From a virus, in the IMG/VR virus record IMGVR_UViG_3300044837_000097, positions 1 through 64,000 of that record: a stretch of 64,000 nucleotides of DNA; one strand, written 5' to 3'. Shown here piece after piece: positions 2,288 to 49,078 of the stretch (its first letter is position 1; every line of letters begins with the position of its first letter). The notes under the pieces were generated by a model. It was not told the origin of the DNA and did no database searches. It saw only the letters and a list, made by a program, of their open reading frames with translations. A program made the position numbers and the translations under genes.

Positions 2288-2316
2288 TTGACAAAGCACG
2301 GGCGCTGGTGTACCAT
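2288..2316 (+). promoter_or_regulatory. sigma70 promoter at start of tRNA array
   Basis: TTGACA-17nt-TACCAT. Confidence 0.75.
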
Positions 2317-2335: not shown

Positions 2336-2410
2336 GGTGTCGATGGTGTAGCGGCAGCACATGAGATTGTGAATCTCATAGTATGGGTTCGACCCCCATT
2401 CTTCACCCCA
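2336..2410 (+). tRNA. tRNA-His(GTG)
   Basis: G-1, C73, CCA; anticodon arm TGAGA-TTGTGAA-TCTCA; two acceptor-stem mismatches. Confidence 0.85.
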
Positions 2411-2420
2411 AAAATAGTGC

Positions 2421-2449
2421 TTGACAAACGCAGAAAGTTCTGATACACT
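2421..2449 (+). promoter_or_regulatory. sigma70 promoter
   Basis: TTGACA-17nt-TACACT. Confidence 0.8.
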
Positions 2450-2491
2450 GGTTTTAGAGTCAAGAAATTATTGACTAAGAAAGAAGGACAA

Positions 2492-2719
2492 ATGAAGATA
2501 GCCACGCTTCTTGCTGCTTTACTGATTGGTGGATTTGTTTTCGCGCAAACGCCAGCACAAGGCGACCACATAGTTCGTCCGTACGTAAAGAGAAACGGCA
2601 CTATCGTTGCTCCCCACTATCAGACGAACCCAAACAAAACTCAGCGGGATAACTACAGCGCGACGGGCCGATACAACCCCCACACGGGACAATCAGGAAC
2701 TAAACACCCGAAGCGTTAA
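2492..2719 (+). CDS. small exported protein (YxKxNGTxVxPHY..NP..G..GT type)
   Basis: Sec signal peptide, GAAGGA RBS. Confidence 0.75.
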   Translation: MKIATLLAALLIGGFVFAQTPAQGDHIVRPYVKRNGTIVAPHYQTNPNKTQRDNYSATGRYNPHTGQSGTKHPKR

Positions 2720-2729
2720 AAGTTTCAAT

Positions 2730-2803
2730 CAGGAATTCTGATAGTGGTAGTCTACGGGCGTCGGAAGCCTGAGGTGGTCGTTCGATTCGACCATTCCTGA
2801 CCA
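2730..2803 (+). tRNA. tRNA-Pro(CGG)
   Basis: C1-G72, A73, CCA; loop GTCGGAA. Confidence 0.85.
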
Positions 2804-2906
2804 GTTTCATGCATCAAGGCATTGAGACTATTAAAGAAGAAATTTCTAAATGTGGTGTTGTTTGTTCGAACTGTCATAGAATTCGAACATTCAATCGCAC
2901 AGGAAT

Positions 2907-2994
2907 CGGGGCGTAGGCGGGTAAATGGAAGCCCTCCGCTTTTGGAAAGCGGTGCCTACGGGCCTTGGGTGTTCGAGTTACCCCGTCCCGACCA
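2907..2994 (+). tRNA. tRNA-Pro(TGG) with long variable arm
   Basis: C1-G72, A73; CCGCT-TTTGGAA-AGCGG; extra arm GCC-TACG-GGC. Confidence 0.75.
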
Positions 2995-3003
2995 AGTTTC
3001 AGC

Positions 3004-3078
3004 GGAGATAGGGTCAGTTGGTAACGACATGCCCCTGTCACGGGTAAAGTGCGGGTTCGATTCCCGCTATCTCCGCCA
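3004..3078 (+). tRNA. tRNA-Asp(GTC)
   Basis: cloverleaf, loop CTGTCAC, G73, CCA. Confidence 0.9.
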
Positions 3079-3087
3079 AGTTTCAGT

Positions 3088-3162
3088 TCCAATCTGGTCT
3101 AATGGTAGGACACCTCACTGTTAATGAGGAGGGTCCACGTTCGAGTCGTGGGGTTGGAGCCA
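3088..3162 (+). tRNA. tRNA-Asn(GTT)
   Basis: CCTCA-CTGTTAA-TGAGG, G73, CCA. Confidence 0.9.
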
Positions 3163-3166
3163 ATTT

Positions 3167-3522
3167 TTGTGGAGCCGTTAGGTTAATCCACAGACGATAC
3201 CCGCAGGGGTGCTCGTTTCAGTTCAGGCCCCTCGGGGCTGTTCGTACTGACGAGCGCCTTTGAGGGAGCTAACGGTGATAACGAGGCGTCTAAAGCACGC
3301 CTACCACAAAGTAGCACACGCCGAAATAACGCGAAAGCGTCGAACATATCGGGCGGCTACTATAATGTTGTCGCGACAGTAACCGAAACGGGCGTCGTCA
3401 TGAAGCGACCCGGTCTCCTCATGAGTGGTGGCGGGCTTGACCTGCAAAGGGACACAAGGTTACGGCGGGGTGAAACCCGCCCAAAGCGCCTCGGCGGGGC
3501 GCGTTGATAAATGCCGCCCGGA
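3167..3522 (+). ncRNA. large structured ncRNA of unknown family
   Basis: no credible ORF; many stems, GNRA-type loops, potential pseudoknot CCGTTAG/CTAACGG. Confidence 0.55.
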
Positions 3523-3533
3523 TTTGTTTCAAT

Positions 3534-3619
3534 CCGCTGGTGATGTAATAGCAGCCATGAATGCCTTAGAAGCATTTGGTCGAAAGACCGTGAAGGTGCA
3601 ACTCCTTCTCAGCGGACCA
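3534..3619 (+). tRNA. tRNA-Leu(TAG)
   Basis: AATGC-CTTAGAA-GCATT, long variable arm, CCA. Confidence 0.9.
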
Positions 3620-3640
3620 TTTTTGTACGTACATTAAGAA

Positions 3641-3675
3641 GGGGGAGCCGTGAACTCCCCCGACTCTTTCAGACA
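3641..3675 (+). promoter_or_regulatory. degenerate copy of the endonuclease-leader pseudoknot, no downstream ORF
   Basis: GGGGGAG-CCGTGAA-CTCCCCC followed by CTTTCAGAC (pairing partner broken). Confidence 0.6.
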
Positions 3676-3687
3676 TCTAGTTTCAGT

Positions 3688-3766
3688 GGTCGCGTCGGGA
3701 AAACGGGATATCCCAATGGCGTTCTAACCCATACAAAAGTAGGTTCGAATCCTACCGCGACTACCA
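3688..3766 (+). tRNA. tRNA-Arg(TCT)
   Basis: loop GTTCTAA with C:C mismatch closing; canonical T arm; CCA. Confidence 0.75.
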
Positions 3767-3772
3767 TTTTGT

Positions 3773-3847
3773 GGGCTGCTCGTATATCGTATAATGCACA
3801 GCGCTACGAACGCTGGGAGCGGGGTTAGACTCCCCGGTGGCCCTCCA
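3773..3847 (+). tRNA. tRNA-Arg(ACG)
   Basis: CAGCG-CTACGAA-CGCTG, CCA. Confidence 0.88.
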
Positions 3848-3856
3848 AGTTTAATT

Positions 3857-3943
3857 CGCCTGCTGGTGGAATTGGCAGACACGCCGGATTCAAAACCCGG
3901 TGCCCGAGAGGGCGTTAGAGTTCGAATCTCTAGTTGGCGACCA
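3857..3943 (+). tRNA. tRNA-Leu(CAA)
   Basis: loop TTCAAAA, long variable arm, CCA. Confidence 0.9.
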
Positions 3944-3975
3944 TTTTGAAATCCATTGACTACGGTCAGGTGATT

Positions 3976-4395
3976 ATGAACAGCAACCAAAGAAAAGATG
4001 CAACGCTAGGAATGCCTCACGGCACCGCGAGTGGCAGACTTCGGAAGATGATTTTGTTCAATCTTTTGAAAAAGCACGGCGAGAATTCCTGCCATGCTTG
4101 CGGAAAGCCGATTGATTCTGTAGATGCTTTGAGTATTGAGCACAAGAAACCGTGGGAAGGGGTATCGGCTGACTTGTTTTGGGATTTAGAAAACATAGCG
4201 TTTTCGCATCTTCGATGTAATACTCCGAACCGCCCTTACAACAATGGTGGGTGGAACAAGAAACCAGCCCCAGAAGGGATGGCGTGGTGCATCGGACATC
4301 AAGTATTCGAACCAGTCGAAAACTTTTGGAAGAACGCAAGTTTTTGGAATGGTCTTGAGAAGTACTGCAAGACGACCAAGATTCGAAATAGATAA
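3976..4395 (+). CDS. HNH homing endonuclease
   Basis: CHACG..LSIEHKKPW..NIAFSHLRCN. Confidence 0.85.
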   Translation: MNSNQRKDATLGMPHGTASGRLRKMILFNLLKKHGENSCHACGKPIDSVDALSIEHKKPWEGVSADLFWDLENIAFSHLRCNTPNRPYNNGGWNKKPAPEGMAWCIGHQVFEPVENFWKNASFWNGLEKYCKTTKIRNR

Positions 4396-4402
4396 AGATT
4401 TT

Positions 4403-4486
4403 GCGCGTGTGGCGGAAAGGCATACGCAGGGGACTTAAAACCCCCGACCGAAAGGTATGAGGGTCCGACTCCCTCGACGCGCACCA
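4403..4486 (+). tRNA. tRNA-Leu(TAA)
   Basis: loop CTTAAAA, long variable arm, CCA. Confidence 0.9.
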
Positions 4487-4491
4487 AGTTT

Positions 4492-4580
4492 GAGCACTGG
4501 CGGTTCGCCGCGTACTTCAAGACGCGAAGTGCGAATCGTCGGAAAACCTACCTCTCATTGAAGACGAGATTGGATGCTCA
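4492..4580 (+). ncRNA. multi-stem structured RNA, unknown
   Basis: closing stem TGAGCA/TGCTCA enclosing GCGG-TTCG-CCGC and two more stems. Confidence 0.45.
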
Positions 4581-4590
4581 ATTAGTTTAA

Positions 4591-4668
4591 CCCGGATGAT
4601 GCCGAAGTTCACGAGGCGTTCGCCTGCAAAGCGAATTGAAGCAGGTTGGAGTCCTGTCACTGGGTCCA
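4591..4668 (+). tRNA. tRNA-Cys(GCA)
   Basis: TTCGC-CTGCAAA-GCGAA, U73, CCA; bulged acceptor stem. Confidence 0.8.
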
Positions 4669-4759
4669 CTCATGTCGGATACCCGCGCTTGAACAGCGAG
4701 GGAGTAAGGTCCGAATCGTTTAAACGTGCTATGGTAACGAAAACCGGGGCACACATTTT

Positions 4760-5013
4760 TGGTAGCGTAGACTAACGCAGGCCGCAAGGCTTGAGGAAGT
4801 TCCTGCCACATCTCAACATCGAACCGTGGAAGTTGCGGGACGCGTAAGCGTACAAGTAAGCCTTCGTACTGAGCAATCAGTCATTGGAGCGAAGTAACTC
4901 TTTTCGGGTGCAAGTTCAAATAGGACCTGAGTGCTTGTTGAGCATGACGAAGGTCGGGTTGAATGCTTAGACGAATGTTAGTCCACGACAGAAGCAGGGC
5001 TACAGCGCCACCA
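4760..5013 (+). ncRNA. rnpB: RNase P RNA (compact, bacterial type-A-like)
   Basis: P1 TGGTAGCGT/GCGCCACCA; P2 GACTAAC/GTTAGTC; P3 hairpin; CR-I GAGGAAGTTCCTGC; CR-V ACAGAAGCAGGGCTA (P4 pairing); P6 CTCAACA/TGTTGAG; P15/P16 with GGT loop; AGACGAATG before P2 3' strand. Confidence 0.88.
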
Positions 5014-5051
5014 AATAAAAATTTTGATTGCTGGTTTAGCGGCCAGTAATC

Positions 5052-5100
5052 GGGTGGGCGTCCCTAGAAGACGCCCTCCCAACTCTTTCTAGGAGAGCAC
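5052..5100 (+). promoter_or_regulatory. RBS-occluding pseudoknot
   Basis: GGGCGTC-CCTAGAA-GACGCCC; loop complementary to TTCTAGG overlapping SD. Confidence 0.75.
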
Positions 5101-5503
5101 ATGGTTTGTACCAAATGCCGGACGGATAAATCTGTTGATGATTTTTACGATAGACATAAGACTGATAGCAACGTAGGTCGTAAGAAGTCCATTTGTAAAC
5201 TATGTCAACACAAACGAAACAGGGCATCAAACGCTGGCCGTCGTCGTGAACACAGAGATAGATTAGTTGTGATTAAGACAGAGCGCGGTTGTGCGGATTG
5301 TGGTTTTAGAGGATTGTGCCCCGGCGCTGCACTTTCATCACAGAAAACCAGAAGAGAAGAAGTTTGTTATCGCCCATTGTTTGCTGTATTCGTGGGAAAC
5401 GATTTTAGAAGAAGTAGAAAAGTGTGACGTGGTTTGTTCTATTTGTCATACTAAACGACATCAGTGCGCTGCGATTTCGAGCGGCAGAATACCTCCCTCT
5501 TAA
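5101..5503 (+). pseudogene. HNH endonuclease split by +1 frameshift near 5305
   Basis: frame 1 ends its homology at GCADCGF; frame +1 continues EDCAPALHFHH..EVEKCDVVCSICH; paralog of 8505..8855. Confidence 0.8.
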
Positions 5504-5542
5504 GGAGGCTTGGTCTCAGTTCAAGTCTGAGGCGGCGCACCA
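5466..5542 (+). tRNA. tRNA-Lys(CTT)
   Basis: CCTCC-CTCTTAA-GGAGG, CCA. Confidence 0.88.
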
Positions 5543-5549
5543 ATTTTCT

Positions 5550-5626
5550 GAGTCGCGGACGCGAGCGGCAGCGTACTCGCCTTTTAAGCGATGGATGTCC
5601 GAGTTCGAGCCTCGGGCGACTCACCA
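5550..5626 (+). tRNA. tRNA-Lys(TTT)
   Basis: loop CTTTTAA, acceptor GAGTCGC/GCGACTC, CCA. Confidence 0.88.
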
Positions 5627-5741
5627 ATTTTCGAAAGAGACGTGCGCCGCGCACGAGAGCGAAATAATGCGGCGGCGGGCGAATGACGCCCTCAGTCTAC
5701 CAAGACGTTACGAAGAGGTGGAATGCCTCAAAATTTTCTGT

Positions 5742-5817
5742 ACCCGATTATCAAACTGGTCGTATGAACCTCTCCTACAAAGAGGCTGGCAGAGTTCGAT
5801 TCTCTGATTGGGTACCA
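5742..5817 (+). tRNA. tRNA-Val(TAC)
   Basis: CCTCT-CCTACAA-AGAGG, CCA. Confidence 0.85.
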
Positions 5818-5824
5818 ATTTCTG

Positions 5825-5913
5825 TGGGGACGCAGTTCGCGGTAGAGTGAACGCTTGCGATATCCGGTACCGGACTCGTAAGATGGCGAGGGTGAATGAC
5901 CCTTGGGTTCCCA
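5825..5913 (+). ncRNA. cloverleaf tRNA-like RNA without anticodon loop or CCA
   Basis: four fully paired arms; anticodon-position arm capped by palindrome TCCGGTACCGGA. Confidence 0.55.
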
Positions 5914-5919
5914 GATTTT

Positions 5920-6010
5920 TGTCGGTAGCATCAGTATGCAGCGCGGTTTTATAAACCGCGAAGCTCCAGATGAGAGCGCCGAGAGTGGGCAGCACACTCA
6001 CCGACAACCA
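5920..6010 (+). tRNA. atypical tRNA, TAT anticodon (Ile-UAU-like)
   Basis: acceptor TGTCGGT/ACCGACA + ACCA; 4-nt D loop; 6-bp anticodon stem; long variable arm; T loop GGCAGCA. Confidence 0.7.
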
Positions 6011-6012
6011 GT

Positions 6013-6087
6013 GGCCCCGTCATCTAGTGGCGAGGATGCCAGCTTCTCAAGCTGGTCACACGAGTTCGACTCTCGTCGAGGCTACCA
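6013..6087 (+). tRNA. tRNA-Glu(CTC)
   Basis: CCAGC-TTCTCAA-GCTGG, CCA. Confidence 0.9.
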
Positions 6088-6126
6088 AGTTTGAAAATGT
6101 AAGAGGAGCAGTTTTAAGATACTCTC

Positions 6127-6417
6127 ATGGCAAACAACTATAACTCGAATCCGATTTTCATCGACAGCATAATGGCTGCAACCGCGAAGAATAGCGGCGC
6201 GACAACGACCAACCCGTTTCGTATTAAAGAAATTGTGTGGAGTACACCCGGAAGCACCGCAGCAGATTCCGCCGTAATTCAAGACGGCTTGGGTAATGAA
6301 ATTTTCGAACAACAATCAGGTCGAGCAGCACCTGAACTGTTTAATCCGCCAATGGTTATAAATGACTTCAAAGTAACAACTTTGGCAGATGGGCACATTC
6401 TGATTTATTTGGTGTAA
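6127..6417 (+). CDS. hypothetical protein, possibly virion beta-rich protein
   Basis: clean 96-aa ORF between tRNAs. Confidence 0.7.
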   Translation: MANNYNSNPIFIDSIMAATAKNSGATTTNPFRIKEIVWSTPGSTAADSAVIQDGLGNEIFEQQSGRAAPELFNPPMVINDFKVTTLADGHILIYLV

Positions 6418-6451
6418 AGCGCACCGTTATCCGCGCTCTTAGTTTTTCAGT

Positions 6452-6525
6452 GCCGTTATCTGCTATGGGTAGGCAACGAGGCTTTCAACTTCGTAGACAG
6501 GGTTCGAGTCCCTGTAGCGGTACCA
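6452..6525 (+). tRNA. tRNA-Glu(TTC)
   Basis: CGAGG-CTTTCAA-CTTCG, CCA. Confidence 0.88.
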
Positions 6526-6626
6526 ATTTTCGAAACGCGCCCATTCGTAGAGTGGGCTATCCCGGTCACTGCCGGGCGCTACGACGATAGCGTGAGTCGG
6601 TCAATACGACATCGCAAAGTTTCAGT

Positions 6627-6700
6627 GGGGTGCGAGTAGGACGGGAATACGGTTGCCTTGCCCGCATCAAGACGGGGTTCGACTCCCCGGCGCTCCACCA
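6627..6700 (+). tRNA. tRNA-Ala(TGC)
   Basis: G3:U70, A73, CCA; loop CTTGCCC. Confidence 0.8.
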
Positions 6701-6755
6701 AATTATAGGAGAGTGATATGACAGTTATACATTAGGTAACTCGGGAGGGTTATTT

Positions 6756-7118
6756 ATGTCTAAGTCATATCGCAAGCCTTGGGGTACGTATGTTGCTGTA
6801 AAGAGCAGCGCACATGCCGATAAGACGTTCGCCGCTCGCGCAATGCGTAGAGCGCAGAATCAGTCCTTGAGAGAAGCAATTCGTGACGACGACTGGGAAG
6901 GCTGGTTGATTCCCGAACGCTACGAGTGCAGAGACAACGATGTGTGGGGTTGGGGCCGAGACGGCAAGCAGCGTCCGATGTACCCGAGCAATCAGTATAA
7001 CAACCCATACGCATACGTATCCAGTCCGACGTGGATGGATGAAGAACAAATCTTCGCACGCTGGGAAGAACGCAAGAGCCACAACGATGATTTTATGGCC
7101 GATGCTTCTCGTAAATAG
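6756..7118 (+). CDS. hypothetical protein
   Basis: GGAGG RBS; MSKSYRKP..DK..A.R..RR. Confidence 0.75.
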   Translation: MSKSYRKPWGTYVAVKSSAHADKTFAARAMRRAQNQSLREAIRDDDWEGWLIPERYECRDNDVWGWGRDGKQRPMYPSNQYNNPYAYVSSPTWMDEEQIFARWEERKSHNDDFMADASRK

Positions 7119-7126
7119 TTTTCTGT

Positions 7127-7200
7127 TCCTCGCTCGTCCAATGGCAGGACGCATGCTTGATAGGCGTGTTATCGTGGTTCGAGTCCACGGTGAGGAACCA
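7127..7200 (+). tRNA. tRNA-Ile(GAT)
   Basis: loop TTGATAG, CCA. Confidence 0.88.
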
Positions 7201-7284
7201 AGTTCGAACAGACACGGGACCCGCTGTACACGGGTTGTCTGCTTCGGTGAGGAACTCCTGATAGGGCACCGATAAATTTTCTGT

Positions 7285-7361
7285 TGCGGGGTAGAGTTCT
7301 GGTGAACTCCGGTGTCTCATAAGCACACGCAGGCTGGGTTCGATTCCCGCTTCCGCAACCA
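7285..7361 (+). tRNA. tRNA-Met(CAT), initiator-like acceptor stem
   Basis: loop CTCATAA; TGCGGGG..CCGCAACCA; lacks the three G-C anticodon-stem pairs. Confidence 0.8.
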
Positions 7362-7370
7362 ATTTTCTGA

Positions 7371-7444
7371 GCGGGTGTGGTGTAATGGCAGCACCTCATC
7401 CTTCCAAGTTGAGTGTACGGGTCCGAGTCCCGTCGCCCGCTCCA
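7371..7444 (+). tRNA. tRNA-Gly(TCC)
   Basis: loop CTTCCAA, U73, CCA. Confidence 0.88.
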
Positions 7445-7452
7445 AGTTTTGA

Positions 7453-7526
7453 GCCTTGATGGTCTAGTGGTAGAACAGTTCCTTGGTAAGGAACAGGTCG
7501 TGGTTCGATTCCACGTCATGGCTCCA
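7453..7526 (+). tRNA. tRNA-Thr(GGT)
   Basis: GTTCC-TTGGTAA-GGAAC, CCA. Confidence 0.9.
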
Positions 7527-7534
7527 AGTTTTGA

Positions 7535-7608
7535 GCACGGTTAGTTTAGTGGCAGAACTGCCGCCTTGTAAGCGGTTGGCGTGTGTTCGATTCACACCCT
7601 GTGCTCCA
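7535..7608 (+). tRNA. tRNA-Thr(TGT)
   Basis: loop CTTGTAA, CCA. Confidence 0.9.
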
Positions 7609-7616
7609 AGTTCTGA

Positions 7617-7690
7617 GCGATGTTGGTGTAGTGGCAGCACGAGACCTTGCCAAGGTCTAGGTATCGTTTCGATTACGATACGTCGCTCCA
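7617..7690 (+). tRNA. tRNA-Gly(GCC)
   Basis: AGACC-TTGCCAA-GGTCT, U73, CCA. Confidence 0.9.
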
Positions 7691-7705
7691 ATTTTAAGAG
7701 GGACT

Positions 7706-8038
7706 ATGACCGACAACATGAGTGGCTCATCTCAGTTCGCTTTGTTTGCTTTAATCGGCGTCGGAGTTTTGGCCTGCTTAGGCGATGCGTACACAACTTT
7801 AAAGGGCTTCGATGTCGGTTTGGTAGAAGGCAATCCTGTTGCTCGTTGGCTTCAAAAGAAATTGGGATTTTCCTTATCGGCTTTTGTTGCAACTGGATTT
7901 TTTCTTGTATCCACTTCGATAATTTCCGTAGTTAGTCCGACTGCCGCGTTTGCAATAGCAGGTGGAGTCATTGCTCTGGAGACGTTCAATACAGTTCGAA
8001 ACTACTTGTTGTTCAAAAAGTACAGTAAGAAAAAGTAA
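7706..8038 (+). CDS. DUF5658-like membrane protein
   Basis: hydrophobic helices with DxxTT..G..EGNP motif. Confidence 0.7.
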   Translation: MTDNMSGSSQFALFALIGVGVLACLGDAYTTLKGFDVGLVEGNPVARWLQKKLGFSLSAFVATGFFLVSTSIISVVSPTAAFAIAGGVIALETFNTVRNYLLFKKYSKKK

Positions 8039-8062
8039 AGATTGTCAATCCACCAGTTTTGA

Positions 8063-8136
8063 GCACGGTTAGTCCAGTGGCAAGACGCTCCCCTCGTAAG
8101 GCAGAAGCGTTGGTTCGATTCCAGCACTGTGCTCCA
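8063..8136 (+). tRNA. tRNA-Thr(CGT)
   Basis: loop CTCGTAA, CCA. Confidence 0.82.
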
Positions 8137-8144
8137 GTTTCTAC

Positions 8145-8218
8145 TCGCCTTTAGCTCAGTGGTAGAGCGTCCGGCTGTTAACCGGGTGATGTTGGTTCGA
8201 TTCCAGCAGGGTGAGCCA
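8145..8218 (+). tRNA. tRNA-Asn(GTT), second copy
   Basis: canonical D and T arms, loop CTGTTAA, G73. Confidence 0.92.
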
Positions 8219-8223
8219 AGTTT

Positions 8224-8352
8224 CTGTTGTGACGCCGAACGGCAAGGCGCATCTAACATGAGGTAGATTCGAAGGCGGCTTAGTCCGTACGTGCTGACTT
8301 AGACAGCATTCGTCCATCGAGTCTACGTGTGGGTTCGAATCCCATCAACTGA
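8224..8352 (+). ncRNA. tRNA-like RNA with ~60-nt branched insertion, no CCA
   Basis: D arm CGCC-GAACGGCAA-GGCG; T arm GTGGG-TTCGAAT-CCCAT; insert closed by GTAGATTCGA/TCGAGTCTAC. Confidence 0.55.
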
Positions 8353-8362
8353 AAGTTTCAGC

Positions 8363-8438
8363 GAGTCGAAAGTGTTAGTGGCAGCATGTCGGTCTCCAAA
8401 ACCGTACGGTGGGGGTTCAAGTCCCTCTCTTCTCGCCA
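8363..8438 (+). tRNA. tRNA-Trp(CCA)
   Basis: loop CTCCAAA, G73, CCA. Confidence 0.82.
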
Positions 8439-8461
8439 ATTTTTGTACGTACAATTAGAAA

Positions 8462-8504
8462 GAGGGGAGCCGCGAACTCCCCTCAATCCTTTCGCGGGGG
8501 ATTT
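8462..8504 (+). promoter_or_regulatory. RBS-occluding pseudoknot
   Basis: GAGGGGAG-CCGCGAA-CTCCCCTC; loop complementary to TTCGCGG overlapping SD. Confidence 0.75.
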
Positions 8505-8855
8505 ATGAAGTGCGAATATCACGTTTGTAATAAAGAAGCAGGCACAAAAAGATATTGTTCTCGACCATGTAATACAAAACACCGTATTCACAAGGCAAGA
8601 AAAATTCAAAAACAGAAAGCCGTTGAATATCTCGGCGGTAAGTGCTCTCAGTGTGGATACAGCCGATGCATCGAGGCACTTCATTTTCACCACTTGAGAG
8701 ACAAACTTTTTGAAATCGGTAAGATGATTGGCTATCGTCAGGCGTGGTTAAAAATTCAAGCAGAACTAGATAAGTGTGTTTTACTTTGCGCCAACTGCCA
8801 TCATGAGTTTCATTACGGAGGGTTGACAGAACCCGGCATTGTGTCCGCTTGCTAA
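8505..8855 (+). CDS. HNH endonuclease
   Basis: GGKCSQCGY..ALHFHH..ELDKCVLLCANCHHEFH. Confidence 0.88.
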   Translation: MKCEYHVCNKEAGTKRYCSRPCNTKHRIHKARKIQKQKAVEYLGGKCSQCGYSRCIEALHFHHLRDKLFEIGKMIGYRQAWLKIQAELDKCVLLCANCHHEFHYGGLTEPGIVSAC

Positions 8856-8906
8856 GCGGCAGCCACCCGAGAGGGTGTGTAGGTTCAAATCCTACACCTT
8901 CCGCCA
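8817..8906 (+). tRNA. tRNA-Ser(GCT)
   Basis: loop TTGCTAA, long variable arm, G73. Confidence 0.9.
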
Positions 8907-8913
8907 ATTTTAC

Positions 8914-9000
8914 GGATGATTGGGCTTCATGGGGAGCAGCAGTCTTGAAAACTGTCCCGACTGAAAGGTCGAGAGGGTTCGATTCCTTCATCATCCGCCA
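8914..9000 (+). tRNA. tRNA-Ser(TGA)
   Basis: loop CTTGAAA, long variable arm, G73. Confidence 0.88.
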
Positions 9001-9005
9001 TTTAT

Positions 9006-9090
9006 GGAAGACAGTGCGAATGGCTCGCAACGGGTTTCGAACACCCGACCAGCCGCAAGGCTGACAGCTCAATTCTGTTCTCTTCCCCCA
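9006..9090 (+). tRNA. tRNA-Ser(CGA), atypical
   Basis: CGGGT-TTCGAAC-ACCCG, long variable arm; T loop CTCAATT, C73. Confidence 0.65.
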
Positions 9091-9091
9091 T

Positions 9092-9166
9092 CCCGTGCTA
9101 GTGTTAGCGGTAGCACCCCGGCTTGAAACCCCGGTAGGTAAGGTTCGAATCCTTAGAGCGGGACCA
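9092..9166 (+). tRNA. tRNA-Phe(GAA)
   Basis: loop TTGAAAC, CCA; acceptor mismatches. Confidence 0.75.
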
Positions 9167-9175
9167 AGTTTCTGT

Positions 9176-9255
9176 GCCTCGGTAGCTCAGAGCGATAAGA
9201 GCAATCGGTTTTTAACCGATAGGTCGTCCGCGCTGCGTCGGATTCGAGGCTTCCA
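9176..9255 (+). tRNA. tRNA-Lys(TTT)-like with aberrant T arm
   Basis: good D and anticodon arms (ATCGG-TTTTTAA-CCGAT); T loop lacks TTC. Confidence 0.55.
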
Positions 9256-9264
9256 ATTTTCTGT

Positions 9265-9338
9265 TGAGATGTCGTTTAATGGTAGGACAAGCGGCTTTGA
9301 CCCGCTGAATAAAGGTTCGAATCCTTTCGCCTCAACCA
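9265..9338 (+). tRNA. tRNA-Gln(TTG)
   Basis: U1-A72, loop CTTTGAC, CCA. Confidence 0.88.
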
Positions 9339-9436
9339 ATCTCGCGTCGTCGGTCAGGTACTTTGAGAGCGCGGCTAGACGCAATCTCGGAGGAAAAGGA
9401 CCCCATCGCCCTAGTGGGGACGGCGTTTATTTCTGT

Positions 9437-9510
9437 TCGGATGTCTTTCAACGGTAGGAAGCGCGGCTCTGAACCGCGTAATGCACGTTCGAGTCGTGCC
9501 GCCCGAACCA
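9437..9510 (+). tRNA. tRNA-Gln(CTG)
   Basis: U1-A72, CGCGG-CTCTGAA-CCGCG, CCA. Confidence 0.88.
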
Positions 9511-10419: not shown

Positions 10420-11004
10420 ATGTCAGTTATCGCAGACTTTCAAGTAAGTCCGTTGTTCCCGTCAATTGTCGGCGGCACAGGCACCACCGCGAAGTATTTC
10501 CCGCGCGCGCTTGGCGCATCCATCGGCGTACAGAGCGTAGCTCCGTCGTCAACGAACGCCGCAGGCCAGTTGAGCGTTCCGGGCAACTCAATTTTGAACG
10601 GCCAGCTTTTTGAAGTTCTCGTTGGCGCATCGTTCGGAAACGATTCGGGCGACCCATCGGGCACCGTGAAGTTGGAACTGGTTGCCAACACGGGCACGTT
10701 GACGACCCCGTCGTATACCGTGCTTGCATCGACCACCGCACAGGTTCCGTCAACACAGCCTGTTGACGCAGCCTTCAAGGTGACCTTGTTCGGTACCAGC
10801 GCATCAGGCATTGTGCAGGGTTCGTACCTAGCATTGATGAACGGCGCAATCAACAATACCACTCCGAAGGCGTTGGACAACAACCTTTCGGGCATCAAGT
10901 TCTCGAACGGCGTGCCGTTCGGATTGGTGGTTCGCGCAACGTTCGGAACGTCGGACGCGACGAACACCGCTTCGTTGTACCAGTTCCAGATTGCCGCAGC
11001 GTAA
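10420..11004 (+). CDS. putative virion structural/decoration protein
   Basis: strong RBS, Gly/Ser/Thr/Ala-rich beta composition, followed by terminator. Confidence 0.7.
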   Translation: MSVIADFQVSPLFPSIVGGTGTTAKYFPRALGASIGVQSVAPSSTNAAGQLSVPGNSILNGQLFEVLVGASFGNDSGDPSGTVKLELVANTGTLTTPSYTVLASTTAQVPSTQPVDAAFKVTLFGTSASGIVQGSYLALMNGAINNTTPKALDNNLSGIKFSNGVPFGLVVRATFGTSDATNTASLYQFQIAAA

Positions 11005-14360: not shown

Positions 14361-16607
14361 ATGGGTTTGACAGCAGCGCAGAGAAAGGCAAACCAGAGAG
14401 CACGCGAAAAGGGCATACCCGAGCCGTTCGGCGTGGAGTACGTCAGCAAAGTTGTGCAAGCGAAAGAATCTGCCGCTGAAAAGGAAAGCAGCGTGCGTCG
14501 TTTGCTCGACGAGGTTGCGGCACAGGATGCGATAGGAAAGAGATTCAAGAGCGAAGCGCGCAGTCTGACACGTCTTGTACGTATCTTCTACGGGCAACCG
14601 GAGAGTGGAGACGTAGACGGTGCAGAGGCCAGCGAGAGCACGCCAAAGAAGACCAAAGGTCCGAAGCGCGTCAACCCTTCCGAGACCCGGGTTCGTATTC
14701 AGAATACCCAAGCTGACCCTCTTGAACGAGGCAAAGGCCGTCGTCGTTCTCTCGAAGGCACAGAGTACGAGACGGACGACATCGTCGGATTCTGGCGCTG
14801 GCTTGAGTTGCGTGACCGTGCGCGTAAAGACTTGTTCTGGCTGGGCCGCGTGCTCGGCAAGGGCTTGTACCGCTCCGTTCACCAAATTATCTGCGACCAG
14901 TTCGTTCCAAAGAATTTTGGGGGCGCGTGGTTGAACTCGGACGGCGCGGAAGATACGACTCGTCCAACGATTGAGCCGTACTACTTCGAGGGCTACACAC
15001 TCGACGACTTCCACGATGCAATCGACGACCACCACCAGTGGCGCGACCACGAAATGATGTTACTTGACTCTCGTGGATTTTACAAGAGCACCATCGACGG
15101 AGTTGACGCGGTGCAGTGGTTGTTGAACTGCCCGGACATTCGCATCCTCATCTTGACGGGTGAGTACAAGCTGGCCGTCAAGTTCCAAAGCGAAATCAAA
15201 AAGTATTTTCACCTTGCAGAAGGACAGGAACCGGGAGCGATTCACTTGTTGTTTCCCGAGTACGTTCTGTACGGCAAGGAAGGTACCTCGGACAGTCCGT
15301 TAGAATGTCCGGCCCGCATGTTGAACCAAGGCGAACCCTCGCTGTGGGTTAACTCGATTGTCGCGAACCTTTCTGGTTGGCACTGCGACATCAAAAAGGG
15401 CGACGATATTGTTACCGACGAGAACTCAAATAGCGACGACTCTCGCGAGAAGTTGAAAGAGAAGTACGACGGTACCGACGACCTTTTGGACCCGCACGGG
15501 TTCATGGACCACATCGGCACCCGCTACTTCACTGACGACTGGTACGGTATGCGCCTGTCACCGGATAAAGAGACCGGGCAGGTTGCGCCGATTAAGTATT
15601 TCAAGCGCGGATGCTGGGTAATCAAACCAGAATACGCGAACATTAAGTTGAGCCAATTAACCGAGGATATGGTCGAATTGACCTTCCCTCAGCGTTGGAG
15701 CTTCAACAAACTCCGCTCACTTCTGTTGAAGAAGATGGCGGGCACTGGCAGTGACCGCGCCTTCCGCAATCAGCAGATGAACGAACCTACTGACGCGATG
15801 GAAGACAGCGGGTTCCGCATCAGCTTCGATGAAGCTACGATGCGCAAGCACATGTACCCGGGCGAGACCGCGCCGAAGCATGGCGAGACCTTCATTGTTT
15901 GGGACTGGGCGCTGTCGGACAAGAAGACATCGGATTATTCAGTGGGCGTCGTTGGCCGACTGTACAAGAGCGACACAGGACTGTGGTCGTTCTCAATCCT
16001 AGAAATAGTTTACGATAAGTGGAAGTATAGTGAACTCGCCTTTCAAATCGTGCTTCTCGCAAAGAAGTGGGGTCCAAAGGTGACGATGGTTGAGCAGTCG
16101 AACGGGTACGAAATGCTACGCGACGAAATCATCCGCGTCGGCAATAAGTACGGTTACCAGCCATATATTTACGCGAAACCGCCGTCTCGTCAGGAGAACG
16201 CAAAGCGCAACCGCATCAAGTCGCTTGAAATTCTTTTGAATGAAAACCGGCTCCACTTCGTGATGGGTCCGTGGATTGACGAGACCATCAAACAGTTTAC
16301 CCAGTACACCGGGGAGAAGAAGAACAAAGGCCGTAAGGACGACATCCCGGACGCCGCTTCTTACCTCGTGTACTTCATTCCGGCAGATTCAAGACCGAGC
16401 CCAGAAGGTTCGGACCCGGAAGAAGAGAAGAGACTAGAGGAAGAACAAACCAAGCAGGCAGCCAAACAATACCACTATGGTCGCTACTTTGGTCAGCATC
16501 TTCCCACCAATAAGCAGGCCGGACCCGTCATTGAAGAGGTTGCCGCGCCGAAGCCGCAGGACCCGCGCTTACGCTTGTTTGGAAAAAACGGGGCATTTAG
16601 AATGTGA
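14361..16607 (+). CDS. terminase large subunit
   Basis: SRGFYKST Walker A, GWHCDIKKGDD Walker B, IGTRY coupling motif, RNase H-like WDWA..DYS..KDDIPDA. Confidence 0.92.
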   Translation: MGLTAAQRKANQRAREKGIPEPFGVEYVSKVVQAKESAAEKESSVRRLLDEVAAQDAIGKRFKSEARSLTRLVRIFYGQPESGDVDGAEASESTPKKTKGPKRVNPSETRVRIQNTQADPLERGKGRRRSLEGTEYETDDIVGFWRWLELRDRARKDLFWLGRVLGKGLYRSVHQIICDQFVPKNFGGAWLNSDGAEDTTRPTIEPYYFEGYTLDDFHDAIDDHHQWRDHEMMLLDSRGFYKSTIDGVDAVQWLLNCPDIRILILTGEYKLAVKFQSEIKKYFHLAEGQEPGAIHLLFPEYVLYGKEGTSDSPLECPARMLNQGEPSLWVNSIVANLSGWHCDIKKGDDIVTDENSNSDDSREKLKEKYDGTDDLLDPHGFMDHIGTRYFTDDWYGMRLSPDKETGQVAPIKYFKRGCWVIKPEYANIKLSQLTEDMVELTFPQRWSFNKLRSLLLKKMAGTGSDRAFRNQQMNEPTDAMEDSGFRISFDEATMRKHMYPGETAPKHGETFIVWDWALSDKKTSDYSVGVVGRLYKSDTGLWSFSILEIVYDKWKYSELAFQIVLLAKKWGPKVTMVEQSNGYEMLRDEIIRVGNKYGYQPYIYAKPPSRQENAKRNRIKSLEILLNENRLHFVMGPWIDETIKQFTQYTGEKKNKGRKDDIPDAASYLVYFIPADSRPSPEGSDPEEEKRLEEEQTKQAAKQYHYGRYFGQHLPTNKQAGPVIEEVAAPKPQDPRLRLFGKNGAFRM

Positions 16608-48900: not shown

Positions 48901-49078
48901 TTTTCTTCTCCACGAATCGGCAGAACACCACGCCGTAAAAACGGTCGTTATCTTTGGTCAAGTTCACCGAGACGACCTCTTGGTTCTCGCTATCCTCAAT
49001 CAGTTCCAACTCCCCTTCCATACGTCTGACGATGGAGTGGAATTCTTTATCAACATATTTGAACGAGTGGATTATCAT
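48890..49078 (-). CDS. hypothetical protein
   Basis: ATGA overlap with NAMPT-like stop. Confidence 0.55.
   Translation of the reverse strand: MIIHSFKYVDKEFHSIVRRMEGELELIEDSENQEVVSVNLTKDNDRFYGVVFCRFVEKKNAG

What the first reader, a model, noticed from the sequence alone, without database searches (positions are those of the whole stretch)
4760..5013. Phage-encoded compact RNase P RNA embedded in the phage's own tRNA array
Seen: a 254-nt segment with the catalytic-domain hallmarks of bacterial RNase P RNA. These are P1, P2 (GACTAAC/GTTAGTC), P3, CR-I GAGGAAGTTCCTGC pairing with CR-V ACAGAAGCAGGGCTA (P4), the type-A P6 pseudoknot CTCAACA/TGTTGAG, and P15/P16/P17 with a GGT loop. P8, P9 and a short P12-like GCAA hairpin are present, but I see no P18 and no P13/P14. 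Established: RNase P RNA matures tRNA 5' ends, the L15 GGU pairs with CCA, and the gene is normally cellular housekeeping. Inference: the phage brings its own ribozyme to process a ~34-tRNA precursor, including many non-canonical tRNAs. It would probably borrow host RnpA, as no rnpA is visible in this window.
Basis: partly seen in the sequence, partly recalled or inferred. Interest (0 to 1): 0.92.

Follow-up and report, generated by a model that had tools for sequence, protein, structure and literature searches.

The report
Phage-encoded compact RNase P ribozyme gene
An uncultured phage of about 100 kb carries, inside its own cluster of 31 tRNA genes, a slimmed-down but structurally intact copy of RNase P RNA, the ribozyme that trims the front end of new tRNAs and is normally a strictly cellular gene.

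Summary
Window 4761-5013 (+) is a real RNase P RNA of bacterial class A ancestry. Rfam RF00010 aligns it end to end at 84.9 bits (E 4.5e-26 in a 991-base search). That is below the 100-bit gathering score, so a standard scan misses it.

The record is a tailed phage (terminase, portal). I found 21 distinct homologues in other viral contigs and 107 homologous loci among 111 from metagenome and genome scans. Every one lies in a tRNA array on the same strand.

On a 22-sequence alignment, 94% of cells pair against about 36% in slid controls. 46 of 66 pairs change on both sides, including the P4 and P6 pseudoknots.

The catalytic core is complete: P1-P5, bulged U, P15-P17, L15 GGU. P13/P14, J11/12 and P18 are missing. 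P1 to P1 is 252 nt.

No rnpA is in this record or in 21 relatives' records. The carrier records form one deep clade of roughly 100 kb phages.

The likely role is 5' maturation of the phage's polycistronic CCA-encoding pre-tRNAs with the host's RnpA. That is inferred, not shown.

Nine literature searches found no description. This scan has already noted the same family and other phage RNase P RNAs on other DNA.

The parts
4761..5013 (+). RNase P RNA gene (P1 5' G to the A that completes a terminal CCA); 252 nt from P1 to P1
   Evidence: RF00010 4759-5018, 84.9 bits, model 1-367. Helix coordinates. No ORF of 40 aa or more covers 4812-5035.
4761..4767 (+). P1 5' strand, pairs with 5006-5012
   Evidence: 6 of 7 pairs in the window. 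4 of 7 pairs show double-sided change in the family. 68.5% of cells are paired, lowered by a conserved mismatch at position 4 and three misaligned rows.
4770..4776 (+). P2 5' strand, pairs with 4977-4983
   Evidence: 97.2% of cells paired; 4 of 7 pairs with double-sided change.
4779..4792 (+). P3 hairpin, 5 bp with a GCAA loop; minimal here
   Evidence: Read from sequence. The P3 region is 10-61 nt in relatives.
4793..4806 (+). CR-I and P4 5' strand with bulged U4801
   Evidence: P4 is 100% paired; 5 of 8 pairs covary; the bulged U is present in 22 of 22. RNAalifold found P4 unaided.
4813..4818 (+). P6 5' strand, pseudoknot with the P17 loop at 4936-4941
   Evidence: 90.2% of cells paired; 5 of 6 pairs with double-sided change.
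4819..4907 (+). Reduced specificity domain: P5/7, P8, P9 (GNRA loop), P10, P11, P12 (GCAA loop) and the conserved joiner CATTGGAG at 4882-4889; no P13/P14 and no J11/12 module
   Evidence: Helices found by RNAalifold and covarying. L9 is GNRA in 22 of 22 and the joiner begins CATT in 19 of 22. Model insert sizes are 17 for 28 and 11 for 49, with J11/12 gapped. P8 covariation is seen in L229, L231 and L249.
4910..4966 (+). P15-P16-P17 arm with CR-IV (CAAATAGG) and the L15 loop GGGTT, whose GGU lies at 4957-4959
   Evidence: P15 100%, P16 96.6% and P17 95.4% paired with covariation. CGGGT is present in 22 of 22.
4967..4976 (+). Joiner from P15 to P2 (the J18/2 equivalent); P18 is absent
   Evidence: 0 nt where the model has 24. 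AGA.G.ATG is invariant. 3 of 22 relatives carry a 17-33 nt hairpin insert at this site.
4988..5001 (+). CR-V (ACAGAA) and P4 3' strand
   Evidence: ACAGAA in 21 of 22. Pairs listed.
5006..5013 (+). P1 3' strand ending in CC, then A: a terminal CCA
   Evidence: CCA at this position in 20 of 22 aligned sequences. L004 lacks it, and the L042 row was cut short by my own coordinates.
2337..9510 (+). tRNA array: 31 tRNA genes, all on the + strand, the presumed substrates
   Evidence: ARAGORN. 30 of 31 end in an encoded CCA; the base before the tRNA is T in 19 of 31; many spacers are 6-13 nt.
2288..2316 (+). Promoter-like site upstream of the first tRNA (weak evidence)
   Evidence: TTGACA-17-TACCAT, 10 of 12 matches. 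The region has 9 sites where 5.7 +/- 2.2 are expected from shuffles.

Best explanation
Window 4761-5013 encodes a functional, size-reduced RNase P RNA of bacterial class A descent that belongs to the phage, not to a host.

Shown by computation: it has the class A catalytic-domain architecture, its helices are kept by compensatory change, and it is a conserved trait of a clade of roughly 100 kb phages, always inside their tRNA arrays.

Inferred mechanism: the RNA is transcribed with the tRNAs as part of one long precursor and is released by the same cuts that free its tRNA neighbours. It folds into the P1-P4 / P15-P17 core and, most likely together with the host's RnpA protein, cleaves the 5' leaders of the phage's closely packed pre-tRNAs. 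The invariant L15 GGU would hold the genomically encoded 3' CCA of each substrate.

Encoding the enzyme alongside its substrates would scale RNase P capacity with the burst of phage pre-tRNA.
For: - End-to-end match to RF00010, 84.9 bits, E 4.5e-26 and 8.9e-28 over the whole record. Class A is the best member of the RNase P clan.
- The record is a phage: terminase large subunit E 5.4e-48 and portal E 3.6e-24. It is an IMG/VR virus record of 82.7 kb, estimated 81% complete.
- Covariation on 22 sequences: 94.0% of 1,417 cells paired against 35.7-37.1% when partners are slid. 46 of 66 pairs change on both sides, against 29.3 +/- 2.2 in shuffles (0 of 500 reach it). The covariation score is 0.509 against 0.149 in shuffles and 0.06-0.08 when slid.
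- RNAalifold found P4, P5/7, P8-P12 and P15-P17 unaided.
- P8, which was fixed by my fishing pattern, covaries in three members found without it.
- Catalytic-core signatures on the 22 rows: bulged U 22 of 22, ACAGAA 21 of 22, CGGGT 22 of 22, GCAA 22 of 22, CAAATAGG 20 of 22, L9 GNRA 22 of 22.
- Context: 22 of 22 distinct viral homologues and 107 of 107 homologous loci from the metagenome and genome scans lie in arrays whose tRNAs are all on the RNA's strand.
- Substrate fit: 30 of 31 window tRNA genes and 1,485 of 1,498 tRNA calls in the related loci end in an encoded CCA.
- Lineage: TerL homologues at 31-76% identity in 19 of 21 relatives' records, including 5 of 5 records at least 90% complete. 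RNA and TerL identity to the window correlate (Spearman 0.55, p 0.015, n = 19; the points are not independent).
- Not a cellular variant: the P8-P9 signature occurs in 3 contigs of 185,579 species genomes. Two are phage-like contigs with tRNA arrays in one MAG and one is a chance match.
- From the abstract of PMC7049720 (listing): separating polycistronic pre-tRNAs is the essential function of RNase P in E. coli. That fits a need in phages with 6-13 nt spacers.
Against: - No activity or expression data exist for this RNA.
- The score is below Rfam's curated cut-off (84.9 against 100).
- The specificity domain lacks J11/12 and P13/P14, and P18 is absent. From recalled knowledge, in class A RNAs these parts help read the tRNA elbow and brace the fold, so activity could be weak or changed.
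- The P4 pair next to the bulged U is U.G in 19 of 22 sequences, not the G-C of the model consensus.
- No rnpA is present in this or 21 related records, and the host is unknown. The protein partner is therefore an assumption.
- The single-sequence fold is not significantly stable (z -1.89).
- The one earlier viral RNase P-like RNA I found in print, in orthopoxviruses, had no pre-tRNA processing activity in vitro (passage in PMC3001073).
Confidence: 0.75

Rival explanations
1. The RNA is catalytic but does not use the host's RnpA. It acts alone, or with an unrecognised phage protein, as a self-sufficient phage RNase P specialised for its own CCA-bearing tRNAs.
For: No rnpA in the window's record or in 21 relatives' records, five of them at least 90% complete. 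The S-domain is remodelled with its own conserved joiner (CATT in 19 of 22). Most genes of the phage have no family match (7 of 10 large proteins gave no PHROG hit; 7 of 10 small ones gave no Pfam hit), which leaves room for an unknown cofactor.
Against: From recalled knowledge, bacterial RNase P RNAs need the protein in vivo. The regions the model marks as conserved around P2-P4, J18/2 and P15 are all kept, so nothing suggests loss of RnpA binding. In many relatives the RNA is flanked directly by tRNAs, so no conserved neighbouring protein gene was seen.
Confidence: 0.12
2. The RNA is a non-catalytic decoy or sponge. It would bind host RnpA, or compete with host RNase P RNA, and so redirect or depress host tRNA processing.
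For: A decoy role was proposed for the inactive orthopoxvirus RNase P-like RNA (passage in PMC3001073). The specificity domain is reduced.
Against: A decoy would not need the bulged U, CR-I, CR-IV and CR-V, the L15 GGU and the P6 pseudoknot to stay invariant or compensated across phages whose TerL identity to the window's falls to about 31-40%. Placement inside CCA-encoding tRNA arrays in all cases points to the phage's own tRNAs.
Confidence: 0.06
3. The RNA is a working RNase P whose main targets are not tRNAs. Candidates are tRNA-like or other structured elements in phage transcripts, such as the non-coding stretches within the array.
For: Unassigned non-coding stretches lie within the array, for example 4487-4758 and 3167-3522 (first-reader note e1-6133342). 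RNase P is known to cut some non-tRNA substrates (passage in PMC11143913).
Against: The only constant neighbours across all homologues are tRNA genes. The intervening stretches differ between relatives.
Confidence: 0.05
4. The element is a decaying host rnpB fragment picked up by chance, or host DNA joined to the phage contig during assembly.
For: It is short, scores below the gathering cut-off, and the window's copy is the shortest of the 22 aligned.
Against: All helices are intact in the window. Compensatory changes occur across 22 sequences. About 91 distinct copies were counted in phage-like contexts. TerL is shared by the carrier contigs. No cellular genome carries this variant outside phage-like contigs.
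Confidence: 0.02

Closest known systems
Bacterial class A RNase P RNA (Rfam RF00010; rnpB / M1 RNA type)
   Same: P1-P4 core with bulged U, CR-I, CR-IV and CR-V, the P6 pseudoknot to the P17 loop, P15/P16 internal loop with GGU, P8, P9 with a GNRA loop, and P10-P12.
   Different: About 252 nt against a 367-position model. It has no P13/P14, no J11/12 module and no P18. It has U.G instead of G-C beside the bulged U in 19 of 22 sequences. It is encoded by a phage inside a tRNA array, with no rnpA in the genome. It scores below the family's gathering cut-off.
Minimal type T RNase P RNA of Thermoproteaceae (Pyrobaculum)
   Same: A natural RNase P RNA that has shed much of the specificity domain yet is reported active (passage in PMC7191817).
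   Different: Type T lacks P11, J11/12, J12/11 and P12 altogether and is archaeal and cellular (same passage). The phage RNA keeps P7-P12, and its best clan match is bacterial class A.
Theta (minimal HDV-like) ribozymes next to tRNA genes of gut phages
   Same: Phage-encoded ribozymes placed beside phage tRNA genes and proposed to make tRNA maturation less dependent on host RNases (Discussion passage of PMC10879173).
   Different: Theta ribozymes are small self-cleaving RNAs acting in cis on 3' trailers. The RNA here is a trans-acting RNase P homologue for 5' leaders.
Orthopoxvirus (camelpox) RNase P-like RNA
   Same: A virus-encoded RNA with some resemblance to RNase P RNA (passage in PMC3001073).
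   Different: That RNA comes from a eukaryotic virus, showed only partial structural similarity and had no pre-tRNA processing activity in vitro. The phage RNA has a complete, covarying catalytic core and sits among tRNA genes.
Other phage RNase P RNAs noted by this scan and seen here in L254
   Same: Compact RNase P RNAs inside phage tRNA arrays. L254 has a 284 nt copy at 180.7 bits, with a tmRNA nearby. Earlier notes are listed.
   Different: L254 is a different lineage. My family profile matches only its 3' half, and it passes the Rfam cut-off, whereas the window's family does not.

Membership tests
Bacterial class A RNase P RNA (RF00010) | Score at or above Rfam's gathering cut-off (100 bits) | tested here: not met
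   84.9 bits, full-length alignment, E 4.5e-26. Absent from the gathering-threshold scan. Relatives score 74.7-95 bits.
Bacterial class A RNase P RNA (RF00010) | P4 helix between CR-I and CR-V with a bulged U | tested here: met
   8 pairs, 100% of cells paired, 5 pairs covary, and the bulged U is in 22 of 22.
Bacterial class A RNase P RNA (RF00010) | P6 pseudoknot between the P5/P7 junction and the P17 loop (class A, not class B) | tested here: met
   6 pairs, 90.2% paired, 5 pairs with double-sided change.
Bacterial class A RNase P RNA (RF00010) | P15/P16 internal loop carrying GGU, the CCA-binding site (role recalled from the literature) | tested here: met
   CGGGT in 22 of 22; P15 and P16 covary. 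CCA binding itself was not tested.
Bacterial class A RNase P RNA (RF00010) | Specificity-domain modules J11/12 and P13/P14 | tested here: not met
   J11/12 positions are gapped, and 11 nt stand in place of the model's 49. No helix is found there in the family alignment.
Bacterial class A RNase P RNA (RF00010) | P18 hairpin | tested here: not met
   0 nt in place of 24 in the window. 3 of 22 family members have a 17-33 nt insert at the site.
Bacterial class A RNase P RNA (RF00010) | Endonucleolytic removal of pre-tRNA 5' leaders | not testable with these tools
   Needs a cleavage assay or complementation.
Bacterial RNase P holoenzyme | RnpA (PF00825) protein partner | tested here: not met
   No match at E <= 1 in the record and none at E <= 0.1 in 21 relatives' records. 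A host-supplied protein cannot be tested.
Phage-borne reduced RNase P RNA family (defined here) | Location in a same-strand tRNA array of a phage contig | tested here: met
   22 of 22 and 107 of 107. TerL homologue in 19 of 21 records.

The most novel reading that the evidence does not exclude
These phages run their own tRNA 5'-processing enzyme. It would be a pared-down RNase P ribozyme, made in step with its substrates from the same precursor, that has dropped the canonical elbow-reading modules (J11/12, P13/P14) and P18. It would work either without protein or with an as yet unrecognised phage protein. That would make phage tRNA supply independent of host RNase P, for instance when host transcription is shut off or host RNase P is limiting or targeted. 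It would be the first natural RNase P of a virus and a naturally minimised bacterial-type ribozyme.
Probability: 0.25. Interest if true: 0.9.

Novelty: new variant of a known kind. Interest (0 to 1): 0.8.

Why it matters
RNase P RNA is treated as a universal housekeeping gene of cells. A conserved viral lineage of it would add a ribozyme to the list of translation-related functions that phages carry. It would also offer natural experiments in how small a bacterial-type RNase P RNA can get (252 nt here, without P13/P14 and P18). It raises a testable question about why phages with 20-30 or more tightly packed tRNA genes need extra or private RNase P capacity. On the practical side, these RNAs score below Rfam's cut-off, so routine annotation of viral contigs overlooks them. 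Compact natural RNase P RNAs may also be useful for in vitro tRNA-array processing.

Tried and rejected
- The whole-window Rfam scan at gathering thresholds listed only 20 tRNAs. The RNase P match appears only at E-value thresholds. This is a matter of the cut-off, not of absence.
- The single-sequence MFE fold gave z -1.89 and a structure that cannot show the P4 and P6 pseudoknots. I did not use it as support.
- I considered extending P1 by a TAG/CTA pairing (4768-4770 with 5000-5002). I rejected it because C5000 and T5001 belong to the covarying P4 helix.
- blastn of the element, and megablast of 20 kb of the window, against 50,697 deposited phage records found nothing. No cultured or deposited relative is in that collection at that sensitivity.
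- The search for related loci with the ORF at 820-1500 found no relative. With the ORF at 10420-11004 it found two loci, of which L002 (a 7.9 kb contig) has no RNase P match.
- A family covariance model could not be built because the alignment has 471 columns and the limit is 400. The covariation counts therefore rest on a MAFFT alignment in which P1 and P2 of L004, L073 and L088 are misaligned. That lowers the P1 figures.
- Sequencing runs: no RNA holder is listed. Three DNA rows hold small shares of the words, and I did not lay them. Read laying was not used. This says nothing about expression or habitat.
- The promoter and terminator scan gave 9 promoter-like sites where 5.7 +/- 2.2 are expected, and terminator-like sites at the chance level. 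It is only weakly suggestive of one promoter region before the first tRNA.
- The script that locates P1 in about 130 loci is approximate. It mislocated the P1 5' strand in at least L047 and L003 when compared. Its gap and length figures are rough, and I report them only under things noticed.
- The P8-independent pattern gave 29 new loci. 23 of them have no profile hit and no tRNA, so they are chance matches.
- Host identity was not determined. I found no suitable tool route for a virus record.
- Literature. Nine searches found no report of a phage-encoded RNase P RNA. I read passages by term search in PMC11143913, PMC6582537, PMC10879173, PMC7191817, PMC8172020, PMC3001073 and PMC10690425, and read section 11 of PMC8172020 in full. 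PMC10690425 lists 324 IMG/VR RNAs already in Rfam only in supplements, which I could not open. Subscription journals are not covered by the library.

Full report
WHAT IS THERE

The window is bases 1-64000 of an 82,715-base IMG/VR virus record, classed linear and estimated 81% complete. It encodes a terminase large subunit (14361-16607, PHROG 38, E 5.4e-48) and a portal protein (17354-19492, E 3.6e-24). It is therefore a tailed phage. ARAGORN finds 31 tRNA genes between 2337 and 9510, all on the + strand.

A standard Rfam scan at gathering thresholds reports only 20 tRNAs. A permissive scan of 4480-5470 aligns bacterial class A RNase P RNA (RF00010) end to end (model 1-367) to 4759-5018 on the + strand. 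The score is 84.9 bits with E 4.5e-26, against a gathering cut-off of 100. The same match has E 8.9e-28 over the whole record. No ORF of 40 aa or more covers 4812-5035.

ANATOMY OF THE WINDOW'S COPY

- P1: 4761-4767 with 5006-5012.
- P2: 4770-4776 with 4977-4983.
- P3: 4779-4792, 5 bp with a GCAA loop.
- CR-I and P4: 4798-4800 and 4802-4806 with 4994-5001, with U4801 bulged.
- P6: 4813-4818 with 4936-4941, in the P17 loop.
- P5/7: 4819-4823 with 4903-4907.
- P8: 4824-4838.
- P9: 4840-4851 with a GTAA loop.
- P10: 4855-4856 with 4900-4901.
- P11: 4862-4866 with 4890-4894.
- P12: 4868-4881 with a GCAA loop.
- An 8-nt joiner at 4882-4889.
- P15, P16 and P17 within 4910-4966. The 3' side of the internal loop reads GGGTT and holds the GGU at 4957-4959.
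- A 10-nt joiner to P2.
- CR-V, ACAGAA, at 4988-4993.

Against the Rfam model, the P18 insert is 0 nt instead of 24 and the P13/P14 insert is 11 nt instead of 49. P12 is 17 nt instead of 28, and the J11/12 positions are deleted.

IS IT MORE THAN A LOOK-ALIKE?

A gene 5.4 kb downstream led to a related contig, L003. It has an RF00010 match of 92.5 bits beside tRNAs. Two pattern scans of viral contigs, built from the RNA's own conserved motifs, were then screened with an nhmmer profile. That gave 30 hits among the 115 loci held. After I dropped the window's own locus and duplicates, 22 distinct homologues remained.

I aligned the window with 21 of them. L028, a weak 25.9-bit partial hit, was left out. 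RNAalifold on its own recovered P4, P5/7, P8-P12 and P15-P17, and 33 of its 46 pairs showed double-sided change.

I added P1, P2 and the P6 pseudoknot from the window's coordinates and counted 66 pairs:
- 94.0% of 1,417 cells form standard pairs, against 35.7-37.1% when the 3' partners are slid by 1-3 columns.
- 46 pairs change on both sides, against 29.3 +/- 2.2 in shuffles; 0 of 500 shuffles reach it.
- The covariation score is 0.509, against 0.149 in shuffles and 0.06-0.08 when slid.
- P4 is paired in 100% of cells and 5 of its 8 pairs covary.
- P6 is paired in 90.2% of cells and 5 of its 6 pairs covary.
- P1 is weakest, at 68.5%. This is because of a conserved mismatch at its fourth pair and three misaligned rows.

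P8 never varies in that set, but only because my pattern fixed it. A later scan that did not use P8 found three more full-length members (L229, L231, L249). Their P8 stems differ by compensatory changes.

The core signatures are essentially invariant. The bulged U, CGGGT, GCAA and the GNRA loop of P9 are each present in 22 of 22 sequences. ACAGAA is in 21 of 22 and CAAATAGG in 20 of 22.

WHERE IT OCCURS

All 22 distinct viral homologues lie in loci with 6-32 tRNA genes, and every one of those tRNAs is on the RNA's strand.

A more specific P8-P9 pattern found 108 metagenome contigs and 3 contigs among 185,579 species genomes. Of these 111 loci, 107 match the family profile. All 107 lie in same-strand tRNA arrays, and 83 distinct complete sequences were counted among them.

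Of the three genome hits, two are contigs of 99.9 kb and 36.7 kb binned as an 'uncultured archaeon'. Both carry the RNA (79.8 and 95 bits) inside tRNA arrays, so they look like phage contigs in a MAG. The third, in Deinococcus, has no RNase P match and is a chance pattern hit. I therefore found no cellular genome with this variant.

A homologue of the window's TerL (31-76% identity) is present in 19 of 21 relatives' records. That includes all 5 records estimated at least 90% complete, which measure 98.5-105 kb; two of them have terminal repeats. The two records without a hit are about 20% complete. RNA identity and TerL identity to the window correlate modestly (Spearman 0.55, p 0.015, n = 19; the points are not independent).

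The simplest reading is a single old acquisition kept by descent in a clade of roughly 100 kb phages. The window's copy, at 252 nt, is the shortest of the 22 aligned, which range from 252 to 344 nt. By a rougher script it is among the four shortest of 85.

HOW IT PROBABLY WORKS

Shown: the complete class A catalytic architecture is under structural selection in phages, always among tRNA genes.

Inferred: the RNA is the catalytic subunit of an RNase P that matures the phage's own tRNAs. Three observations fit this.
- 30 of 31 tRNA genes of the window encode their 3' CCA, as do 1,485 of 1,498 tRNA calls in the related loci. From recalled literature, the CCA is the partner of the L15 GGU, and the GGU is invariant here.
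- Many tRNAs are only 6-13 nt apart. By the abstract of PMC7049720 (listed), separating polycistronic pre-tRNAs is the essential job of RNase P in E. coli.
- The RNA occupies a slot in the array and ends in CCA like its neighbours, in 20 of 22 sequences. It could therefore be released and trimmed by the same steps that free the tRNAs.

No rnpA (PF00825) is present in the window's record (E <= 1). None is present in 21 relatives' records (E <= 0.1; the record of L042 was not held and so not searched). The control genomes did ring in the same searches. Alternatively there is none, or it is an unknown phage protein.

POINTS AGAINST

- There are no activity or expression data, and no RNA-holding run was listed.
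- The score is below Rfam's cut-off.
- The modules that in class A RNAs read the tRNA elbow (J11/12, P13/P14) and P18 are missing.
- The pair beside the bulged U is U.G in 19 of 22 sequences.
- The single-sequence fold is not significantly stable.
- The one earlier virus-encoded RNase P-like RNA that I found in print, in orthopoxviruses, was inactive in vitro (passage in PMC3001073).

COMPARISON WITH WHAT IS KNOWN

The RNA works like, and descends from, bacterial class A RNase P RNA. It fails three membership features: the gathering score, the J11/12 and P13/P14 modules, and P18. I therefore file it as a reduced phage-borne variant, not a plain member.

It is less reduced than the archaeal type T RNA, which lacks P11-P12 as well (passage in PMC7191817).

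In phage biology the nearest published analogues I found are the theta ribozymes beside phage tRNAs, proposed to process 3' trailers (PMC10879173).

A different phage lineage, L254, carries a 284-nt RNase P RNA that does pass the Rfam cut-off at 180.7 bits. It sits in an array that also holds a tmRNA. The phenomenon is therefore wider than this clade.

NOVELTY

Nine full-text searches and term searches in seven papers found no description of a phage-encoded RNase P RNA (14, 37, 40, 51-53, 68, 69). A 2024 review of RNase P mentions phage tRNAs only as substrates; 12 of 27 matching places were shown. A survey of structured RNAs in IMG/VR covered RNAs of 29-151 bases, excluded Rfam matches, and never mentions RNase P in its main text. 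I could not see its supplements.

The library does not cover subscription journals, so 'not in print' is provisional.

This scan has met the same family before on other DNA (notes e1-6022514, e1-5990358, e1-6056676 and e1-6062723). It has also met other phage RNase P RNAs (e1-6047439, e1-5728804, e1-5981551 and e1-5367886). I treated these as leads only and tested the claims on this window myself.

VERDICT

The element is a genuine, structurally conserved, phage-borne reduced RNase P RNA. Its role in phage pre-tRNA 5' maturation is very plausible but untested. I class it as a new variant of a known kind, with interest 0.8.

Noticed in passing
window 4601-4657 (within the unassigned stretch 4487-4758): A sub-threshold tRNA match (24.4 bits, E 0.017, model 10-63). 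By eye it has a GCA (Cys) anticodon, an acceptor-like pairing and a following CCA. ARAGORN's 31 tRNAs include no Cys and no Tyr, so this may be a non-canonical tRNA-Cys.
   Followed up: partly
window 5011-5013 and the 3' ends of the aligned homologues: The RNase P RNA itself ends in CCA, with the two C's paired in P1, in 20 of 22 aligned sequences. It is usually preceded by a T-rich spacer like those between the tRNAs. It may be trimmed like a tRNA, or its own CCA may interact with L15.
   Followed up: partly
L254 8848-9131 and 10741-11084: A different phage contig (58.9 kb) has a 284-nt RNase P RNA scoring 180.7 bits, above Rfam's cut-off. It lies in a 27-tRNA array that also holds a tmRNA at 119.3 bits.
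   Followed up: partly
L235 10293-10636; L240 1081-1335: Two further viral contigs have RNase P-like matches with few or no tRNAs nearby. L235 matches RF00010 at 80.5 bits over 344 nt. L240 matches RNaseP_arch at 59.1 bits over 255 nt. Both are below their cut-offs.
   Followed up: no
L117, L118 (genome contigs): Two contigs (99.9 kb and 36.7 kb) of a MAG titled 'uncultured archaeon isolate LFW-28' carry this phage-type RNase P RNA within long tRNA arrays. They are probably phage contigs binned into the MAG.
   Followed up: partly
window 3934-4395 and 5101-5427: Small ORFs are interspersed in the tRNA array. The ORF at 3934-4395 matches HNH endonuclease (PF01844, E 7.6e-06). The Cys-rich ORF directly downstream of the RNase P RNA has no Pfam match. 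A first-reader note (e1-6133340) calls 5101 a free-standing endonuclease gene with a pseudoknot over its ribosome-binding site.
   Followed up: no
window 2288-2316 and 2421-2449: Two promoter-like sites with perfect TTGACA -35 boxes flank the first tRNA (His, 2337-2410). Apart from one hairpin inside a tRNA gene and two weak 6-bp stems, no terminator-like site lies on the + strand through the array.
   Followed up: no
window 2730-9510, inter-tRNA spacers: Spacers after the encoded CCA are stereotyped (AGTTTC, ATTTTC or AGTTTT, often then TGT, AGT or TGA before the next tRNA). The base before the tRNA is T in 19 of 31. This may be a shared processing signal.
   Followed up: no
L003 4174-4258, L004 3756-3843, L005 3258-3342, L117 2761-2843: Sub-threshold tRNA-Sec matches (37.9-43 bits against a cut-off of 47) recur in the relatives' arrays. 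They are probably long-variable-arm tRNAs, but I did not examine them.
   Followed up: no
window 49075-50634 (-): The phage encodes a nicotinamide phosphoribosyltransferase (PHROG 448, E 1.1e-155).
   Followed up: no
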